Virus record (IMG/VR): IMGVR_UViG_3300021399_000103
Location: 96,001-160,000 of that record
Source: a virus
Taxonomy: Duplodnaviria; Caudoviricetes
Length of the DNA stretch: 64,000 bases
Direction: 5' to 3' (one strand)
Positions 35,708-59,372 of this stretch are shown here, piece after piece (positions within the stretch are counted from its first letter, which is position 1; every line of letters begins with the position of its first letter). Below the pieces are notes generated by a model. The model searched no databases and was not told the origin of the DNA. It saw only the letters and a program-made list of their open reading frames with translations. The translations under genes and the position numbers were made by a program.

Positions 35708-35920
35708 TTACGATTTAGGCGGTGGTTGGCGGCCGGCTTGGCTATAGCGTTCCAAAATGCCGTCCAATTCATTATGTATAATATCCAATTTATTTTTTAG
35801 TTCCTCATTTTCTCTCTGTATCTTTTCGTTAATTCCAAGCAGGAGATAGCATCCGATCAACAGAAAAATTGATAAAATTATAAGTAAAATCATTAGCTGA
35901 TCAATAGTAATAGTAAGCAT
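35708..35920 (-). CDS. Small membrane/coiled-coil protein
   Basis: TM helix; TAATG coupling to the upstream gene. Confidence 0.6.
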   Translation of the reverse strand: MLTITIDQLMILLIILSIFLLIGCYLLLGINEKIQRENEELKNKLDIIHNELDGILERYSQAGRQPPPKS

Positions 35921-36465
35921 TATTGTTTCCTTTCTTTTATTTCTGAAATAATCTGTTCAATATTTACAGGGAACCCATTATGAGCATCCACTTCACAATG
36001 ATAAATAAGCCCTTTATCAAAATCCGCAAATGGGTCTGTTGTATGAGTATGACCGCAAAGATTAATTGTAGCAGTTCTTTTATAGTCATCATAGTTAGAG
36101 CATAATGTTGGATAATGTGATAGATAAAGATGATGCTTATGCACTTTAATTACATTAGCATATGTAATTTCCATTATATTTGTCGTATGATAAAGATAAG
36201 CATTAACTCTTCTATCGCTATCGTGATTTCCTCTAACAATAAAGATATTTCCATTTAATTGACGCAAGCAATTTATGCCATCATCTAAATCTCCAAGCGT
36301 AACATCACCAAGATGATATACGGTATCACCAGGAGAAACAACACTATTCCACTTCTGGATTAAATCTTTATTCATTTCTTCAACTGTGTTGTATCCACGC
36401 GCCGCATAGATAAAATCTTTATTATGGTTGAAATGAGTATCGGATATTACAAAAATATTATCCAT
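35920..36465 (-). CDS. Calcineurin-like metallophosphoesterase
   Basis: SDTH, LGD, GNHD, HYP, GHTH. Confidence 0.9.
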   Translation of the reverse strand: MDNIFVISDTHFNHNKDFIYAARGYNTVEEMNKDLIQKWNSVVSPGDTVYHLGDVTLGDLDDGINCLRQLNGNIFIVRGNHDSDRRVNAYLYHTTNIMEITYANVIKVHKHHLYLSHYPTLCSNYDDYKRTATINLCGHTHTTDPFADFDKGLIYHCEVDAHNGFPVNIEQIISEIKERKQ

Positions 36466-36931
36466 AGCTAATCACCTCGATTTTTACATTTTCAAGACTT
36501 AAAAAATCATTAACAGAAGGCCGGCGATATGAAGCCGCCATACTTCTAATTGAATCTTCTGGCACTCTTTTCATTTCTTCTCTTGGAGCATTTCTTTCTA
36601 AGCACACTTCAAGAGGTGTTTCGATAGCAACAAAATCAATTTCTTCAAAATCATTGCGGTTAATATTATAGAGCAATTTCCATCTTGAAGAGTTGTTAAG
36701 ATGGGTAGCATCTGCCCAAATTACATCATATTTTCCAATTCCGTTGTTAATTCTATTACAGAACTCATTGAATACTTCTTTTTCTTTTGAGAAGTAAGGA
36801 ATGCCAGGAGTAATCATTGAAAAACGAATTTTATCGCGTGATACTATAAGATCTTCTGGATTCGCATGTTCTTTAATATAACTGGATTTGCCTGATGCCG
36901 GAACTCCGCACATTACTTTTAGTATTGTCAT
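36458..36931 (-). CDS. Polynucleotide-kinase-like P-loop protein (AAA_33)
   Basis: GVPASGKS, SRD, DAT, RNAPR; GGAG RBS before MTILK. Confidence 0.8.
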   Translation of the reverse strand: MTILKVMCGVPASGKSSYIKEHANPEDLIVSRDKIRFSMITPGIPYFSKEKEVFNEFCNRINNGIGKYDVIWADATHLNNSSRWKLLYNINRNDFEEIDFVAIETPLEVCLERNAPREEMKRVPEDSIRSMAASYRRPSVNDFLSLENVKIEVISYG

Positions 36932-37142
36932 TTTCAAAATCTCCATTCTCAAATTTTCTCTTAAATTTTTCTACATCTTGTTGTGAATAACATTCATAAT
37001 GATTTACTTCATCTTTGCAGTGAATACACCAGAGCTTCTTTAAGTGCCCCTTACCTCGTTGTGAAGCTGTGTTTCTAAAAACTGGAAGTCCTTCATTACC
37101 GCACTTCGTACAAAAAAACCTGTGTTGTTCTAATTTTGCCAT
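36873..37142 (-). CDS. Zn-ribbon phage protein
   Basis: CTKC..HLK..CIHC. Confidence 0.65.
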   Translation of the reverse strand: MAKLEQHRFFCTKCGNEGLPVFRNTASQRGKGHLKKLWCIHCKDEVNHYECYSQQDVEKFKRKFENGDFENDNTKSNVRSSGIRQIQLY

Positions 37143-37269
37143 TCAAATATAATCACCTCTTTACCTTTCTATATATATTATAACATATTTTTATTATTTT
37201 TTCAATTAAAATGTAAGCGATTTGCGGCCGGGGCTACGCCGATCGTATTAACCGCCAGCCGCAAACTTC

Positions 37270-37476
37270 TTATCTAACGCACAAAGAGCATATTGAAACT
37301 TCTTGTGTCCGCCCTCCAGTGGCTGGAATAACAATACTATTTGTAGTATATGCCATACATCCTTTTCCTATACAATCTTCAAATTCTTCATGTTGTTCAG
37401 TAATAATAGTAGTATCTTTCCAAGCGGAAGTCGTATTATCAACATATATTCTTTTTCTAAATGGACATTTTTTCAT
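37270..37476 (-). CDS. Small Cys-rich protein
   Basis: CPF..C...C; RBS. Confidence 0.55.
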   Translation of the reverse strand: MKKCPFRKRIYVDNTTSAWKDTTIITEQHEEFEDCIGKGCMAYTTNSIVIPATGGRTQEVSICSLCVR

Positions 37477-37488
37477 ATAAAAGTTCCT

Positions 37489-38625
37489 TTATTTTAAGAA
37501 ATCTGGTAATTCATAATCTGGTAACAATTTGATAATTCTACTCAATTCAGCACCAGAATGAATGAAATCATCGGCATTTAATTTATTTCCAAGAGACTTA
37601 AATCCAAAATATGCTAATTTATGATCTTTAATTGCTTGTGCTACTGGTTTACGCTCGTGAGAGTATTCTTCATATAAACTTCTTACCATAACTAAGAAAC
37701 GATCAATCTCCCATTTAAGAGTTTCAATTTGATATTGATAAAATCTAATTTGAGCGCCATAAGCATGATTACTAATATCAACTCTATCCCAGGTATTATC
37801 TAAAGCAAGTGAAACTGCGGTATCTTTAGATAACAAATAAGAGCCATTATTCCAGTCATGATGCGCTGCTAAATACTCTGGTGATTTGATTTTAATACGA
37901 TGCCAATTTTTATCCACAACAACAAAGCCTTCAGCATCAACATGAGAGGCGCAATTATTTAGAGCAGCGGCTGCCTTAATAGCATCTTCAAAAGTTGAAA
38001 TTGAATATTCTTTTGGTTTCTGAACACCAATATTAAGATTATATTCGTTGCCAGTAATATTGTTACGAGTTCCAGTATGATATAATTTAATTTCTGGATA
38101 TTCAACCACAATTTTATTATATGGTGAAACTAATTCAAAAATATAAGTATAATCATGAGTTAATGCTTCAAAAGGAATATCTTTATAGTTTTTAGCAGAA
38201 ACAATTATATCATAAAAAGTTTTATTAAAACCTTGAACATCGGCATTACGAGCATCAATAACTCCATTAGTTGCCCAGATCCATTCATCATTAAACCAAT
38301 AGAGTTTAACAATAGAACCATCTACTTTTTCTTGAACTCGTGCAGATGCCCAATCAATGTTATCAACATATGATTCATTATGATTACCGAATTTGCGGAA
38401 AGGCCAGCAGACAACATCTAAAGTATCAAGATTGATAATAATACCTCTTGCTTCTTGAACTATTGGATCAGAAAAATCGCAATCAATACTATAATTAAAA
38501 ATAGCACGATAATCATTAGGAGCAAACTTGATTTTGATATTTTTTGCTTCAAGTAATTCTTTCCAATCATTTGGATGATTTCTTATGAATTGTACAATTA
38601 AAGATTTTTCATTCATTTTTATCAC
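37489..38625 (-). CDS. RNA ligase, T4 Rnl1 family
   Basis: EARG, PF.KF.N, KVDGS, FEL, EGFVV, KIKS.EY. Confidence 0.9.
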   Translation of the reverse strand: MIKMNEKSLIVQFIRNHPNDWKELLEAKNIKIKFAPNDYRAIFNYSIDCDFSDPIVQEARGIIINLDTLDVVCWPFRKFGNHNESYVDNIDWASARVQEKVDGSIVKLYWFNDEWIWATNGVIDARNADVQGFNKTFYDIIVSAKNYKDIPFEALTHDYTYIFELVSPYNKIVVEYPEIKLYHTGTRNNITGNEYNLNIGVQKPKEYSISTFEDAIKAAAALNNCASHVDAEGFVVVDKNWHRIKIKSPEYLAAHHDWNNGSYLLSKDTAVSLALDNTWDRVDISNHAYGAQIRFYQYQIETLKWEIDRFLVMVRSLYEEYSHERKPVAQAIKDHKLAYFGFKSLGNKLNADDFIHSGAELSRIIKLLPDYELPDFLK

Positions 38626-38697
38626 CTCTTTTCCTTTATATAAATATTATATCATATTTTTTATAAAAAATAAAAAAAGGATGGTTTATCACCATCC

Positions 38698-39741
38698 TTA
38701 ATAATCCATAATTTGTTCTTTCAGCTGATTGGCACGAAGTGGATTTCTTAATTTCTGCATTGCCTTTGCTTCAATTTGACGGGCACGTTCTCTTGTAACA
38801 CCAAGAACTTTGCCAATCTCATCTAAAGTATGTCCAGTTCCATCTTCAAGCCCAAATCGCATTTGAACAACAAGTTTTTCTCTATCAGAAAGAGTTCCGA
38901 GTATATCATTAATAGCCTGTTTTGTGGCATCTCGTCTGACTTTTTCTTCTGGAGTTTCCTGATTTAAGTCTGGAACAATATCTGTCATATCAACATCATC
39001 ATCTTCCGCAACTGGTTTATCAATAGACAGGGGGTTTTTAGATGCGGCAAGGTACATTGCTACTTTCTCAGCGGTTAAACCAGTAGCAGCTCCAATTTCT
39101 TCTTCTGTTGGTTCATGTCCAAGAGTCTGAAGTAATTCGGCTCTTGCTTTAGAAATTTTAGACAATGATTCTACGACATGAACTGGAGTACGAATTGTTC
39201 TGCCCTGGTCAGCAATGGCTCTACTAATCGCCTGGCGCACCCAATATGTAGCATATGTAGAAAACTTAAATCCTTTTGTGTAATCATATTTATCAGCAGC
39301 TTTGTATAAACCAAGGTTACCTTCTTGAACAAGGTCTAAAAAGCTCAGATTACATTTGCCAACATATTTTCTTGCGATAGAAGCTACTAAGCGAAGATTT
39401 GATTCAACTAATTTATTTTTTGCTTCAGTATCCCCATCGACTACTCGTTTCGCAAGATATAATTCTTGTTCTGGACTAAGTAACGGAATAGTGTGAATTT
39501 GACGCATATAAATTTTAGCTGAATTGCTTACTGAATTAAATTTTAAATCATCATTACTTTCTTCATCAAAATCTGGCAACACAACTTGAATATTAGCTTC
39601 ATAAAGAGCGTCATATGCTTTTTCTAATTCTTCATCATCAGAGAAGATTTTTTCAATTTCAGCTTCATCAATTGTGTTATCTTTTGCTTTAGCAATTAAT
39701 GCTTGAATCTTTTGTTCGAATGTCATATTCAACACCTCCAT
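38698..39741 (-). CDS. RpoD/SigA-like sigma factor
   Basis: [20 protein letters not shown], region 4 TRERARQIE. Confidence 0.92.
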
Positions 39742-39784
39742 TTTTTCTTTTCTTTTCTTTATATATATATTATATCATATTTTT

Positions 39785-40579
39785 TTAATTATTCAAAAAA
39801 GAATCTTTTTGATAATCATTTATTGAATATCCAAAAGGAATAGCTAAATGATATAACATGGTTGCGTTTTCTGGTATATCCCGATCATCGTGATAATGTC
39901 CCCAATACCAGTGCTGCCAAGAAGTACTTGCCGCAATTTTATTCAAGAAATCTTCCATACTATAATCAATTTGTGATTGATCTATTGAAGATAAGAATAA
40001 ATCATTTATATATTGATGCCATATATGTGGACAAGTGTGAGATAAAATATAATCATAATGCGGTTTCAAATTATTTAATATATCTATTTGTTCTTTTTCG
40101 TTCAACTGCTCTTCTGGAAACCAAGACCAATGATTTTGTATCCTGTACCATTTATCAACTGAATATGCTCCAGGTATTACCAATACAGACTTTCCAGCAA
40201 TTTCATATTCTCCGCCTTGATCTAATGCGTATAAAATCCTTGGATGTTTATCTTCATTCCAAACAGTATTGCCAAAGAATTTCTCTTTATGCCAGTCTGA
40301 TGGGTAATTTTTAGCTAATACAGAAGGACGTTCTTCATGATTCCCCCTAATTACAAAATAAGTTAATGGATAATACTCTATTTTATCTTTAAACTTATCA
40401 TCTTTTTTATTTAAATAAAAATTTCCACCAAAATCTCCAAGTATTATTAAAATATTTTCCCTAAAATCTTTAGAGAGTTCATTTTTATGATACATATAGA
40501 AATTCCGAATTGGAAGCCAATCGCCATGGACATCTCCCATTATCCATATGTTTTTTATTACTTTTTCTCTATCTAACAT
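39785..40579 (-). CDS. Metallophosphoesterase
   Basis: GDVHG, LGD, GNHE, SHTCP, GHYH. Confidence 0.88.
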   Translation of the reverse strand: MLDREKVIKNIWIMGDVHGDWLPIRNFYMYHKNELSKDFRENILIILGDFGGNFYLNKKDDKFKDKIEYYPLTYFVIRGNHEERPSVLAKNYPSDWHKEKFFGNTVWNEDKHPRILYALDQGGEYEIAGKSVLVIPGAYSVDKWYRIQNHWSWFPEEQLNEKEQIDILNNLKPHYDYILSHTCPHIWHQYINDLFLSSIDQSQIDYSMEDFLNKIAASTSWQHWYWGHYHDDRDIPENATMLYHLAIPFGYSINDYQKDSFLNN

Positions 40580-41367
40580 TATATCACCTCTTTCAGTGAA
40601 AGTTGACTTATTAAGGCTGTATCTATAAAATCTTTACAGCAATCATGCAATAATATCTCAACTTCTTCATTTGGTTCTTCTACATCAATACGTTTAGTAT
40701 AAGCGTCAATTAATACTTTAATTGTTTCGATTGAATGATCTGCAATACATTGAAGTGCATTCGCTCCAATTTCATGATTGCGGATTTGCATAATATAATT
40801 GCGATCTTCTCCCTGCGGCCGCAAACATTGCTCATAAGGAAGGTTATTTATATAATTTTTAAGATAGTATTCATATCGCACTAAATTTGCGACTTGTTTA
40901 CAACTAATCTCTCCTTCTGGAGTATATAATCTATCATAAGCATTTAGTGCCATACCCTTAACTGTTTTTACCGCAGTCATTTTATCATAACGAACAATAT
41001 CTTCTTTATATTTTTCTAATTCATTCCAAATATTTTTATATCCAGGATTGATAATTTTATAATCTGTATAAAGAATTTCGAGCATATTAAGATTTTGCTT
41101 TTTTAATTCAGATAAAGCAACTCGAATATCTTTTATGCTTATTTGTTCTTTTGAATCTGGTAATTTAGAAGTAGAACTATCTCCTTTTTTATTTTTGTAA
41201 ATGTCTTCTAAACTTGGTACAATTAACAGTTTTGTATCAACATCAGAAGTTTCTAAGGCAGTTCCATAATTTTGACTGCCAGCCAAAAATATACCAATAA
41301 TTCTATCTTCATCAACTTTGGTTTTTGCGTGTTGATAATGTGCGTTTAAGCGTTCCACCACGGACAT
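40579..41367 (-). CDS. Pol-beta-family nucleotidyltransferase (RlaP/YcgL-like)
   Basis: GSQNYG..SDVD..K.N.N..E. Confidence 0.8.
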   Translation of the reverse strand: MSVVERLNAHYQHAKTKVDEDRIIGIFLAGSQNYGTALETSDVDTKLLIVPSLEDIYKNKKGDSSTSKLPDSKEQISIKDIRVALSELKKQNLNMLEILYTDYKIINPGYKNIWNELEKYKEDIVRYDKMTAVKTVKGMALNAYDRLYTPEGEISCKQVANLVRYEYYLKNYINNLPYEQCLRPQGEDRNYIMQIRNHEIGANALQCIADHSIETIKVLIDAYTKRIDVEEPNEEVEILLHDCCKDFIDTALISQLSLKEVI

Positions 41368-42197: not shown

Positions 42198-43736
42198 TTA
42201 TTTTACTATTTCATATCGTGGAGAGTCAAGCTTCGCCATCATCAAGTCATAGCCAGTCTTGCCAGTAGCAATTGTCTGATAGATAGATGGACTCATGCCA
42301 GAGACAAATGAAGCACCTTCTCCAATCATTGGGATATTATTTTGACGAGCATCTACGTTCCAGAATACAAGGTTTGGAATCTTATATCCATACTTTTCCC
42401 ATTCAATAGCAATCTTTTCAAGCTCCGTATTAATAGTTGCTTTTGAGAAAGTAGGAAACTCTGTTTTTGAGTATGAATACCAACCAGGCCGAGCGCAACT
42501 ATCAAATTCCATATCACTAATGATAATGATATTTTCTGGGATATCTGCTTGAGCACAGTTATTCTTAATAGCAGTATTAAGAATAAGGTCAAAGACACCT
42601 TTAATATTAGTGTTTTCACAAATATTCTTAGAGTAAATTCTCTTAACCTTATCAACAAAGTCAACACCTTCAATCTCAATCAACTGTGGATCATGAGAGA
42701 AAGTAATGAAGTGATTATGATAAGGGCCTTTTGCTTTTTCCGCACAGCACAAACCAAGAGAAATAGCGATGTTCATTGGCTGATTTTTGTCTCCATAATG
42801 AAGCATTGAAGCGGAAGTATCTACAACTGCGATACCATTAAACTTAAAATCATCAAATGATTCCAAATAATTATCCCAATACTTATTAACTATAGTACGG
42901 TCAAAGGTATCAGCCTTATTATATGAGTATTTGGTAATATTAATGGCTTCACCAACAATCTCATATGGATAAAGGTCTTTTGCGTTTACTCTCTTGGTTT
43001 CATCCTGGATAAATTCCTTATAAGACTGGATATTCTTATTCTGCATCATGCGCTCAACATCATGACGAGCAAACGCATTTTTGTAGATAAAACCAGCTTT
43101 CGAAGGGATTTTATCAAATTCAATTTCGCTCCAACGACCAGCAGACATAAGTCTTTCAAGAACATTGATGCGCTCACGAAGGATAGATAATGTCTTACGA
43201 TACTGACGTGGAGTCATATGCATCTGGACTCTTGTATGTCTACCCAGGCGCTTACTTTCCTTTGATGAAGTATTTTCTGATTTCATCCACTTTGCTAAAA
43301 GTGAAGGAGTTTTAGACTGAGTGTCAAGAACAAGCTGATGCTTCATAAACTTCCACATATCATCTTCAACTTGAGTCCCAATAAGTGCGTAAAGGTCGTC
43401 CCAGCGTCCATATTCAGGAATGTTCTTGATATTTCTACGCATTGCTTCTGGATCCTGCTTAGCGAGATCAGTTAAGCAAAGGCGGAAGAAGCGTCTTTCT
43501 CCCTGGCCGCCACGAATGTCGCGGATATAGAAAAGACACTTTAAGGCATAAGTAGGATTTTCCACATATGCCTTACGGAACATTAAAATAACATCTTCGT
43601 CAGAGCGATTACGCATTGCCGCCCCCATAGCAAACATATCTAAAAGATCACTTTTGGTTGTCTTATGAGTGATGCCACCATTTTCGGTATAAGTGAAATT
43701 GGTTTCATCTTTAAGGGCATTTAAAAATGTAGTCAT
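42198..43736 (-). CDS. DUF2828-family protein (TROVE/Ro60-like helical domain plus vWA)
   Basis: TENG, RDIRGGQGER, YGRWDDL, LAKW; vWA DTSASM, ISDMEFD, FWNV. Confidence 0.85.
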   Translation of the reverse strand: MTTFLNALKDETNFTYTENGGITHKTTKSDLLDMFAMGAAMRNRSDEDVILMFRKAYVENPTYALKCLFYIRDIRGGQGERRFFRLCLTDLAKQDPEAMRRNIKNIPEYGRWDDLYALIGTQVEDDMWKFMKHQLVLDTQSKTPSLLAKWMKSENTSSKESKRLGRHTRVQMHMTPRQYRKTLSILRERINVLERLMSAGRWSEIEFDKIPSKAGFIYKNAFARHDVERMMQNKNIQSYKEFIQDETKRVNAKDLYPYEIVGEAINITKYSYNKADTFDRTIVNKYWDNYLESFDDFKFNGIAVVDTSASMLHYGDKNQPMNIAISLGLCCAEKAKGPYHNHFITFSHDPQLIEIEGVDFVDKVKRIYSKNICENTNIKGVFDLILNTAIKNNCAQADIPENIIIISDMEFDSCARPGWYSYSKTEFPTFSKATINTELEKIAIEWEKYGYKIPNLVFWNVDARQNNIPMIGEGASFVSGMSPSIYQTIATGKTGYDLMMAKLDSPRYEIVK

Positions 43737-43753
43737 TTCCTTTTTCTCCTTTC

Positions 43754-43819
43754 AAGACCCTAAGTCTATTATTGAAAAAATGGCACAATCCATAAACTAG
43801 AAATTGCTGTTAGGGTCTT
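43754..43819 (-). promoter_or_regulatory. Stem-CAGCAA RNA motif copy A in the DUF2828 5' leader, abutting the RBS
   Basis: AAGACCCTAA-CAGCAA...TTAGGGTCTT-GAAAGGAG, just after a TGATATAAT promoter. Confidence 0.7.
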
Positions 43820-43852
43820 TTTTATTACATTATTATTATATCATAATTTTTA

Positions 43853-44287
43853 TTATTTTTCAAGTATTTGTAAATATTTGTAAATAGTACTTCTACTACA
43901 ATTTAGCTTTCTTGCAGCTTCAGTTTTTGTTATTTCATTGTTTTTTATTTTATTAAGATAATCAAAAAATTGATCTGGAATATCTTCTAAAGTAGTTTTC
44001 TTTCTTCCGCCTGTATAAGTACCTGATTCTTTTTGTTTCTTTATTGCTGCTTTTATTAGTTCTGAATGAGAAATATGATTGTCTTCACTTATTCCATGAT
44101 GTAGTATATTATGACATTCTGTACATATAGGAACTATATTTGTAATAATATCTTTACCCCCTAAACTAATAGGTACTATATGGTGATATATTATTAAATC
44201 ATGACATTCTTTTCCGCAATTACAACATTTTGTTCCAAGTTGATCAATTAATATTGTTCTATTAATTTGTGAACTTTTTCTGCTCAT
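43853..44287 (-). CDS. HNH endonuclease with C-terminal HTH
   Basis: CCNC..HHIVP..N..CTECH..H. Confidence 0.85.
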   Translation of the reverse strand: MSRKSSQINRTILIDQLGTKCCNCGKECHDLIIYHHIVPISLGGKDIITNIVPICTECHNILHHGISEDNHISHSELIKAAIKKQKESGTYTGGRKKTTLEDIPDQFFDYLNKIKNNEITKTEAARKLNCSRSTIYKYLQILEK

Positions 44288-45185: not shown

Positions 45186-45192
45186 AGAAATC

Positions 45193-45309
45193 AAGACACC
45201 TTTTACTGTGCTTTACCATTTAGCTACTCCCCCATAACAGTGGGGGAGACAAGATTCGAACTTGTAATCTCAGGGTCCAAAACCGAGAGTTAATTGCTGA
45301 AAGTGTCTT
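45193..45309 (-). ncRNA. Stem-CAGCAA RNA copy B containing a circularly permuted tRNA mimic (YrlA-like topology)
   Basis: AAGACACTTT-CAGCAA..T arm ACAAG-TTCGAAT-CTTGT, closed acceptor CTCCCCCA/TGGGGGAG, D arm, AAGGTGTCTT. Confidence 0.75.
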
Positions 45310-45465: not shown

Positions 45466-45472
45466 ATATTTC

Positions 45473-45576
45473 AAGTCGCTTTTGTTTTGGAGTGGAATTG
45501 AACCACCAATAGACAGTTTGGAATACTGTTGCCTTAACCTTTTGGCTACCATCAGATTTTTTGCTGTAAGCGACTT
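45473..45576 (-). ncRNA. Stem-CAGCAA RNA copy C enclosing D, anticodon and T arms in normal order, without a proper acceptor stem
   Basis: AAGTCGCTTA-CAGCAA..ACAGT-ATTCCAA-ACTGT..GGTGG-TTCAATT-CCACT..AAGCGACTT. Confidence 0.7.
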
Positions 45577-45653: not shown

Positions 45654-45658
45654 ATAAC

Positions 45659-45734
45659 AAGACAGATATTTTTTATATGATTTTAGTTCAAAAGTCTAAT
45701 CCAGTATAATTTTCAATATTGCTGTATCTGTCTT
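45659..45734 (-). ncRNA. Stem-CAGCAA RNA copy D (short)
   Basis: AAGACAGATA-CAGCAA...TATCTGTCTT. Confidence 0.7.
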
Positions 45735-51227: not shown

Positions 51228-51276
51228 CAATGTTGTCATCGTTGCCCCTTTGTCTCCCGAAGATGGCCCCATATAG

Positions 51277-51625
51277 TGGAGCTGCGGGGAGTCGAACCCC
51301 GGTCTTGTTCAGTATACTATCGCAATTCTCTTTATCCACAGCTTACTCAAATATTAACTTAGCAAACATATTATTTGAGAACTTTTGTTTGCGGCAGCCC
51401 GCATATGAGATCGGATTAAGCGGCGAGCGCACCTATTCCGTTTGCTTTAATTTATACTCTAACTAGCAAGCTAAAGCTACTTGATAGGAAGGAGCAAAGA
51501 AATTCTTGATCTTTGCGAATGTGCTTTTAATAAAGTTTGCGTTTAATTTTTAATTTAGTGGTTAGAGTCACTACCTCGCTGCGAATTTTGACCTCAACTG
51601 CCAATCGATTTCCATTTACAACCCC
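51277..51625 (-). ncRNA. ssrA: tmRNA; tag ANFIKSTFAKIKNFFAPSYQVALAC
   Basis: GGGGTTG/CAGCTCC-A acceptor with G3.U70, T arm, tag frame 51540-51463. Confidence 0.9.
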
Positions 51626-59255: not shown

Positions 59256-59261
59256 ATATTC

Positions 59262-59372
59262 AAGGCACTTTATCTTGCTTTAACCATTTAGCTACTCATC
59301 AAAATTTTTGGCTGATAAGACAGGAATCGAACCTGCATATAAGAATAATCTTATGTTTGCTGTATGTGCCTT
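59262..59372 (-). ncRNA. Stem-CAGCAA RNA copy E containing a circularly permuted tRNA mimic
   Basis: AAGGCACATA-CAGCAA..GCAGG-TTCGATT-CCTGT, CTTATCA(GCCA)..TGATGAG, D arm, GTGCCTT. Confidence 0.75.

What the first reader, a model, noticed from the sequence alone, without database searches (positions are those of the whole stretch)
43737..43865. The same RNA motif sits against the RBS of the DUF2828 gene, suggesting autoregulation
Seen: promoter (TTGAAA..TGATATAAT), then motif copy A, whose 3' strand runs straight into GAAAGGAG and the start codon. This is the best internal link between the motif and the protein. Inference: free protein binds its own leader and represses translation when the trans RNAs are saturated.
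Basis: partly seen in the sequence, partly recalled or inferred. Interest (0 to 1): 0.7.

Follow-up and report, generated by a model that had tools for sequence, protein, structure and literature searches.

The report
Partner-RNA copy in Ro-like gene leader
A gut phage keeps, one base before the ribosome-binding site of its Ro60-like RNA-binding protein gene, a conserved short copy of the RNA 'handle' found on that protein's presumed partner RNAs, so the protein probably senses and limits its own production, although binding has not been shown.

Summary
Observation confirmed. A strong sigma-70 promoter is followed by a 67-nt element (a helix joining its ends, plus unpaired ACAGCAA) that ends 1 nt before the Shine-Dalgarno (SD) sequence of a DUF2828 gene. 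The predicted protein fold is Ro60-like (helical ring plus vWA). Four more copies lie in the tRNA array; two are YrlA-type tRNA mimics.

The unit is kept in 19/19 leaders of the gene's own clade (65-93% protein identity), with a covarying helix 1-3 nt from the SD. In loci found by motif alone, copies precede DUF2828 far more often than tRNAs do (14/23 versus 2/52). Most sister phages instead carry a covarying GUCC-loop hairpin, almost exclusive to this leader.

Limits: the helix does not hide the SD; distant phages space it 0-30 nt; some copies precede other genes; no binding or expression data were obtained.

Best reading: a cis site for the protein in its own mRNA, probably repressive (0.5). 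Main rival: a co-transcribed partner RNA or 5' stabiliser (0.3). It is not a canonical Y RNA, and it closely resembles Dictyostelium Class I RNA. The scan reported this family and leader copy before in other genomes.

The parts
43835..43863 (-). sigma-70 promoter with extended -10 (TTGAAA-17-TATAAT); predicted start near 43828
   Evidence: 11/12; a TATAAT lies 12-20 nt before the helix in 18 of 19 clade leaders, the 19th being cut by its contig end
43753..43819 (-). leader copy of the handle RNA: terminal helix (43819-43811 with 43762-43754), unpaired ACAGCAA (43810-43804), 41-nt variable interior without tRNA-like cargo
   Evidence: 7-bp core 98% paired with a covarying position in 17 clade leaders
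43746..43752 (-). Shine-Dalgarno AAAGGAG; its AAGGAG core begins 1 nt after the element and ends 9 nt before the ATG
42198..43736 (-). DUF2828+DUF7788 gene, 512 aa, Ro60-like fold (helical ring plus vWA with DxSxS MIDAS motif)
   Evidence: Pfam, PHROG 850 RNA-binding protein, Foldseek top 13 hits all Ro60/TROVE, VIA Z 16.1
45658..45734 (-). handle RNA copy without obvious cargo, between tRNA-Ile and tRNA-Asp
45472..45576 (-). handle RNA copy enclosing a tRNA body (CCA in the anticodon loop); the handle stands where the acceptor stem would be
   Evidence: Rfam tRNA 46 bits, not called by ARAGORN
45192..45309 (-). handle RNA copy with permuted tRNA-like domain (T arm, acceptor-like stem, D arm), YrlA-type
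   Evidence: Rfam YrlA 29.3 bits, E 0.0012, below gathering 69
59261..59372 (-). handle RNA copy with permuted tRNA-like domain, directly after its own promoter-like site and followed by tRNA-Asn

Best explanation
The element is a cis-acting site for the Ro60-like protein in that protein's own mRNA. Shown: it is a conserved, covarying copy of the handle shared by four RNAs of the tRNA array; it lies between a dedicated promoter and the SD at a fixed 1-3 nt; the handle family is tied to the DUF2828 gene; the protein has a predicted Ro60 fold. Inferred: the ring protein binds the helix+ACAGCAA handle. While partner RNAs are in excess they take up the protein. Surplus protein binds the leader, and a 60-kDa ring on a helix that ends 17 nt before the AUG hinders 30S loading. 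This would match protein to RNA supply by steric repression, not by an SD-hiding switch.
For: 19/19 clade leaders keep the unit while the interior (26-53 nt) and the upstream genes (HNH, methylase, GIY-YIG) change. The 7-bp core is 98% paired, with four pair types at one position; slid registers fall to about 50% or less. A motif+SD search blind to the protein gave 9 loci: 8 directly before DUF2828 genes, five of them only 37-42% identical, and 1 before a nucleotidase-like gene that DUF2828 directly follows. In motif-found loci the next ORF is DUF2828 for 14/23 handles versus 2/52 tRNAs (Fisher p 1e-7, loci not independent). 37/39 motif-bearing contigs encode DUF2828, 23/23 of the near-complete ones. 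Sister phages keep a different covarying hairpin, too short to be a free RNA, which precedes DUF2828 in at least 40 of 45 cases; this leader is therefore a habitual control point. A cut at the helix end would leave an mRNA that begins at its SD.
Against: The SD is not paired to the helix. In distant phages the handle-to-SD gap before DUF2828 is 0-30 nt and resembles the gap before other ORFs (7-26 nt). The same promoter-handle-SD layout precedes a 37-aa ORF in L047, whose DUF2828 gene has the GUCC hairpin, and a nucleotidase-like gene in L045. 38/229 handle copies follow a promoter directly, so being first in a transcript is common. Known Y RNA genes lie next to Ro60 genes without being operators (PMC4201824). 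The close-abutting clade is a single evolutionary event. No binding or expression data.
Confidence: 0.5

Rival explanations
1. The leader copy is one more partner-RNA gene placed first in the Ro-like operon so that RNA and protein are made together. It is cut off, or it protects the mRNA 5' end when bound (positive coupling), and it does not repress translation.
For: Tandem handle copies sit just upstream or just downstream of the gene in Bacillus, Listeria, Enterococcus, Campylobacter, Staphylococcus, Mycobacterium and Felixounavirus phages; downstream copies cannot be operators. Spacing to the SD varies in distant lineages. YrlA RNAs lie within 4 kb of Ro60 on the same strand (PMC4201824). 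A cargo-less copy also exists in the tRNA array (45734-45658).
Against: The gap is fixed at 1-3 nt in 19/19 clade members, with almost no spacer for processing. Sister clades hold a gene-specific hairpin at this place that cannot be a free RNA.
Confidence: 0.3
2. The helix acts without the Ro-like protein, as a 5' stabiliser, processing signal, or site for another phage or host factor that acts on many transcripts of the tRNA region.
For: 9/23 handle-ORF junctions involve other genes. Handles often open transcripts (38/229) or precede tRNAs (81 cases). Other hairpins replace it in relatives.
Against: The unpaired ACAGCAA is invariant, the family co-occurs with DUF2828 in 37/39 contigs, and it is strongly enriched before this one gene.
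Confidence: 0.14
3. The placement is a neutral relic: a partner RNA gene came next to the RBS by deletion and is no longer functional there.
For: Four relatives have a full YrlA-like handle RNA about 190 nt upstream followed by the GUCC hairpin, a possible precursor layout. The interior is not conserved.
Against: Helix and ACAGCAA are kept with compensatory changes across proteins that have diverged to 65% identity.
Confidence: 0.06

Closest known systems
Ro60/Rsr with YrlA-type Y RNAs (Chen et al. 2014, PMC4201824; Rfam RF02553); phage phiLo Ro60 with Yrl1/Yrl2 (PMC12135203)
   Same: Ring-plus-vWA fold; small RNAs with paired ends encoded beside the gene on the same strand; two genome copies carry the permuted T-acceptor-D tRNA mimic.
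   Different: The protein is DUF2828, with no TROVE Pfam hit and 11-14% identity to solved Ro60s. The handle is ACAGCAA, not GNCGAA/CGAA. The leader copy has no tRNA-like domain and is part of an mRNA leader. My searches found no report of Ro60 autoregulation.
Dictyostelium Class I RNAs (Kjellin et al. 2021, PMC7919456; Rfam RF01414)
   Same: Start AAG, short stem joining both ends, adjacent unpaired 11-nt motif (10/11 identical to the Rfam consensus CCUUACAGCAA), variable interior, similar length. The Rfam model aligns end to end on 43753-43818.
   Different: 19.7 bits against gathering 41.5 (E 0.16); ends CUUG rather than CUGU; embedded in a phage mRNA. Class I RNAs are reported as dictyostelid-only, and their known binder is the RRM protein Rnp1A. 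Common ancestry is not shown.
Translational autoregulation by target mimicry (ribosomal protein operons, E. coli thrS, T4 gp32 and RegA, MS2 coat operator; from my own knowledge, not checked here)
   Same: An RNA-binding protein whose leader carries a copy of its main RNA target next to the initiation region.
   Different: Here the protein is Ro-like, the primary targets are presumed, and neither binding nor repression is measured.
Bas63 gp130 (bioRxiv 10.1101/2024.10.10.617714)
   Same: Ro60-like gene directly upstream of a tRNA array; a Felixounavirus homologue of this protein has that layout with handle RNAs among its tRNAs. The paper shows gp130 counters the Ppl defence system.
   Different: I did not compare gp130 itself. 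The paper only speculates on Y RNAs and describes neither the handle nor a leader site.

Membership tests
Ro60/TROVE proteins | Helical-repeat ring closed by a vWA domain | tested here: met
   Model pLDDT 74, pTM 0.69. Foldseek top 13 hits all Ro60, TM 0.45-0.59. VIA Z 16.1, rmsd 4.7 over 380 residues to 1yvp.
Ro60/TROVE proteins | MIDAS motif in the vWA domain | tested here: met
   D306-T-S308-x-S310, T376 and D408 invariant in 30 homologues
Ro60/TROVE proteins | Sequence match to the TROVE Pfam model or to solved Ro60s | tested here: not met
   Pfam gives only DUF2828 and DUF7788; phmmer finds no Ro60 in PDB at E<=1
Ro60/TROVE proteins | Binds a Y-type RNA | not testable with these tools
   No binding assay; the complex predictor takes no RNA
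YrlA-type Y RNA | GNCGAA(N)G Ro-binding motif near the 5' end | tested here: not met
   The leader copy has no CGAA; the conserved motif is ACAGCAA
YrlA-type Y RNA | tRNA-like domain (T arm, acceptor-like stem, D arm) | tested here: not met
   Absent from the leader copy; present in copies 45309-45192 and 59372-59261 (Rfam YrlA 29.3 bits, below 69)
YrlA-type Y RNA | Encoded within 4 kb of the Ro gene on the same strand | tested here: met
   Four of five copies lie within 2 kb upstream; the same adjacency holds in eight cultured phages
Dictyostelium Class I RNA | Terminal stem plus adjacent 11-nt motif, start AAG, variable interior | tested here: met
   10/11 motif identity and full-length model alignment
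Dictyostelium Class I RNA | Rfam gathering score 41.5, CUGU end, 42-65 nt | tested here: not met
   19.7 bits; best other phage copy 26.2 bits; the end is CUUG; length 67 nt
Autoregulatory translational operator | Conserved copy of the protein's RNA target at its own initiation region | tested here: met
   19/19 in the clade; enrichment over tRNAs. The target itself is presumed.
Autoregulatory translational operator | SD or start codon paired within the element | tested here: not met
   The SD lies outside the helix; SD pairing with the coding region is not conserved (unpaired probability 0.2-0.97). Not required for steric operators.
Autoregulatory translational operator | Protein-dependent repression | not testable with these tools
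   Needs a reporter assay or toeprint

The most novel reading that the evidence does not exclude
DUF2828 proteins are a second, widespread branch of Ro60 with their own RNA handle (terminal helix plus ACAGCAA). The branch meters itself by binding a handle copy in its own leader, and sister lineages have swapped in a GUCC hairpin for the same job. The orphan Class I RNAs of social amoebae would be the eukaryotic members of this RNA family, which predicts a DUF2828 partner for them.
Probability: 0.25. Interest if true: 0.85.

Novelty: new variant of a known kind. Interest (0 to 1): 0.6.

Why it matters
The protein family occurs in about 700 cultured phage records, and a Ro60-like protein of phage Bas63 counters a bacterial defence system, yet the RNA ligand of this family is undefined in the papers I could search. 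A 67-nt natural leader gives a minimal candidate binding site and a simple reporter read-out in laboratory phage-host pairs. It would be the first case I could find of a Ro60-type protein controlling its own synthesis. It also offers a route to test whether Dictyostelium Class I RNAs are Y-RNA-like.

Tried and rejected
Expression: only two RNA runs held about 5% of the words. The single read-laying run was stopped by a filter and counted, so no reads were laid; this is no evidence either way.

Rfam at gathering threshold finds nothing on the leader.

SD sequestration by the helix was rejected. The SD-to-CDS pairing in the window's MFE is not conserved.

A loose motif+SD pattern gave mostly unrelated matches without the helix. 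Only L030, L041, L045, L047, L056 and L057 were real.

Two pair counts were run in the wrong register by my error and were redone.

The tree is the quick fallback with midpoint root, so it does not give the order in which the handle and the GUCC hairpin replaced each other.

The likeness of the GUCC hairpin to the vertebrate GGUCCGA Ro site, and of one subclade's hairpin arms to the handle helix, is suggestive only; most arms do not match.

Paper searches for DUF2828, CAGCAA, Ro-like, TROVE, YrlA and Ro60 autoregulation found no description of the handle; the library is incomplete. One review was not held. I did not test whether dictyostelids encode DUF2828; the Atlas taxa were uninformative.

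Full report
Setting. The window is part of a 176-kb phage contig, 94% complete, with 26 tRNA genes and a tmRNA called on the minus strand. The finding covers the leader of ORF 43736-42198. Downstream are a nucleotidyltransferase, a metallophosphoesterase and a T4 Rnl1-type ligase; upstream is an HNH gene.

Observation. The promoter matches 11 of 12 consensus bases with an extended -10. The element at 43819-43753 folds into a terminal helix with ACAGCAA unpaired on its 5' side. The SD core starts 1 nt after it and the ATG 16 nt after it. Five such elements exist in the genome, all on one strand within 16 kb, against 0.47 in shuffles. The other four sit among the tRNAs. Two hold a permuted tRNA-like domain in the YrlA order, one wraps a tRNA body, and one has no cargo.

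The protein. Pfam calls it DUF2828 plus DUF7788, PHROGs an RNA-binding protein, and several mycobacteriophage records name homologues Ro-like. A model built on 30 homologues matches only Ro60/TROVE structures at E<0.001, with VIA Z 16.1 to Xenopus Ro60 and other vWA proteins at Z 10 or less. The MIDAS residues are invariant. Sequence alone does not reach Ro60. It is Ro60-like by fold and a separate family by sequence.

Homologue leaders. Of about 80 distinct leaders from the protein searches, those with the handle beside the SD form one clade with the window (10 rows, support 99). Eight more clade members fetched independently all had it, giving 19/19. In these, the helix ends 1-3 nt before the SD, a TATAAT lies 12-20 nt upstream in 18, the interior varies from 26 to 53 nt, and the upstream gene differs. 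In 17 aligned leaders the 7-bp core is 98% paired, one position shows CG, UA, AU and GC pairs, and slid registers fall to about 50% or less.

Protein-blind tests. A handle+SD pattern in IMG/VR gave nine loci. Eight are directly upstream of DUF2828 genes, five of them only 37-42% identical; the ninth heads an operon whose second gene is DUF2828. A handle-only pattern let me use tRNAs of the same loci as control: when an ORF follows within 60 nt it is DUF2828 for 14 of 23 handles and 2 of 52 tRNAs (related loci inflate the p of 1e-7). 37 of 39 handle-bearing contigs encode the protein; I picked these mainly for length and stem, and some already showed the gene. Eight cultured phages of Bacillus, Listeria, Enterococcus, Mycobacterium, Escherichia, Staphylococcus and Campylobacter all have handle copies beside the gene, upstream or downstream.

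A second leader element. 61 sister leaders lack the handle at the RBS and carry a 7-8 bp hairpin with a GUCC-type loop 10-15 nt before the SD, with several pair types at five of seven positions. In five large records (89-100% complete) the 10-nt core occurs once or twice each, including once at this leader in every record. In a blind search it precedes DUF2828 in at least 40 of 45 extended hairpins. At least 12 of 18 such loci still hold handle RNAs upstream. Four relatives have both a YrlA-like handle RNA and the hairpin. This gene's initiation region therefore carries a dedicated structure in nearly all relatives, which favours a cis role. It also shows that the handle is not needed there.

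What limits the claim. The gap from handle to SD is 0-30 nt before distant DUF2828 genes and 7-26 nt before other ORFs. L047 has the window's exact layout before a 37-aa ORF. 38 of 229 copies follow a promoter. Copies downstream of the gene cannot be operators. Canonical Y RNA genes also lie next to Ro60 genes (PMC4201824). No reads could be laid.

Mechanism. Most likely (0.5): surplus protein binds the leader handle and sterically hinders 30S entry, and the array RNAs titrate it. Conservation, position and gene linkage are shown; binding, sign of regulation and titration are inferred. Rivals: a co-transcribed partner RNA or positive 5' protection (0.3), a protein-independent or other-factor element (0.14), a relic (0.06).

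Comparison. It works like Ro60 with YrlA RNAs (PMC4201824, PMC12135203) but fails the GNCGAA test, and the leader copy has no tRNA-like domain, so I do not file it as a Y RNA. The closest RNA look-alike is Dictyostelium Class I RNA: start AAG, terminal stem and 10 of 11 motif bases match, but the score is below gathering and ancestry is untested. This hit was already; an earlier scan note (e1-141106) made me examine it. I found no paper describing the handle or Ro60 autoregulation.

Verdict. A real, conserved feature and a new variant of a known kind. Earlier agents of this scan reported the same family and leader copies in other genomes; I treated these as leads, not support. Added here: the tRNA-controlled enrichment test, the clade-level fixed spacing, the counter-examples, and the alternative GUCC hairpin. 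Interest 0.6.

Noticed in passing
L003-L029, L069-L141, L328-L440, about 36-42 nt before the DUF2828 start: Covarying 7-8 bp hairpin with a GUCC-type tetraloop, 10-15 nt before the SD, almost exclusive to DUF2828 leaders. A candidate second operator family; no Rfam or literature check was made on it, and a word search of earlier scan notes found nothing.
   Followed up: partly
L017, L018, L029, L104, L105, L113 leaders: In one subclade the GUCC hairpin arms (AAGGC/AAGAC ... GCCTT/GTCTT) match the handle helix without ACAGCAA, as if the whole interior had been deleted.
   Followed up: no
window 45472-45576 (-): A tRNA body with CCA in the anticodon loop whose acceptor stem is replaced by the handle helix; similar copies in L001, L025, L145 and L146 have other loops. 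Possible anticodon-nuclease decoys.
   Followed up: partly
window 43853-44287 (-): Free-standing HNH gene whose last codons contain the -35 box of the DUF2828 promoter; relatives have methylase, GIY-YIG or other genes at this spot.
   Followed up: partly
L068, L133, L326 leaders: A second ACAGCAA sits in the interior loop of the leader element.
   Followed up: no
L047 5735-5663 (-) and L045 2012-1946 (-): Promoter-handle-SD units in front of a 37-aa acidic ORF and of a nucleotidase-like gene: a possible small regulon of the Ro-like protein.
   Followed up: partly
G022:C1 133860-136453 (-) and G030:C1 73500-75820 (+): DUF2828 genes found in two pieces separated by about 0.8-1.1 kb, possibly introns or insertions.
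   Followed up: no
window 35920-41367 (-) and 51276-51625 (-): RNA end-repair cluster (phosphoesterases, kinase-like ORF, Rnl1-type ligase, nucleotidyltransferase) downstream of the gene, and a phage tmRNA in the tRNA array.
   Followed up: no
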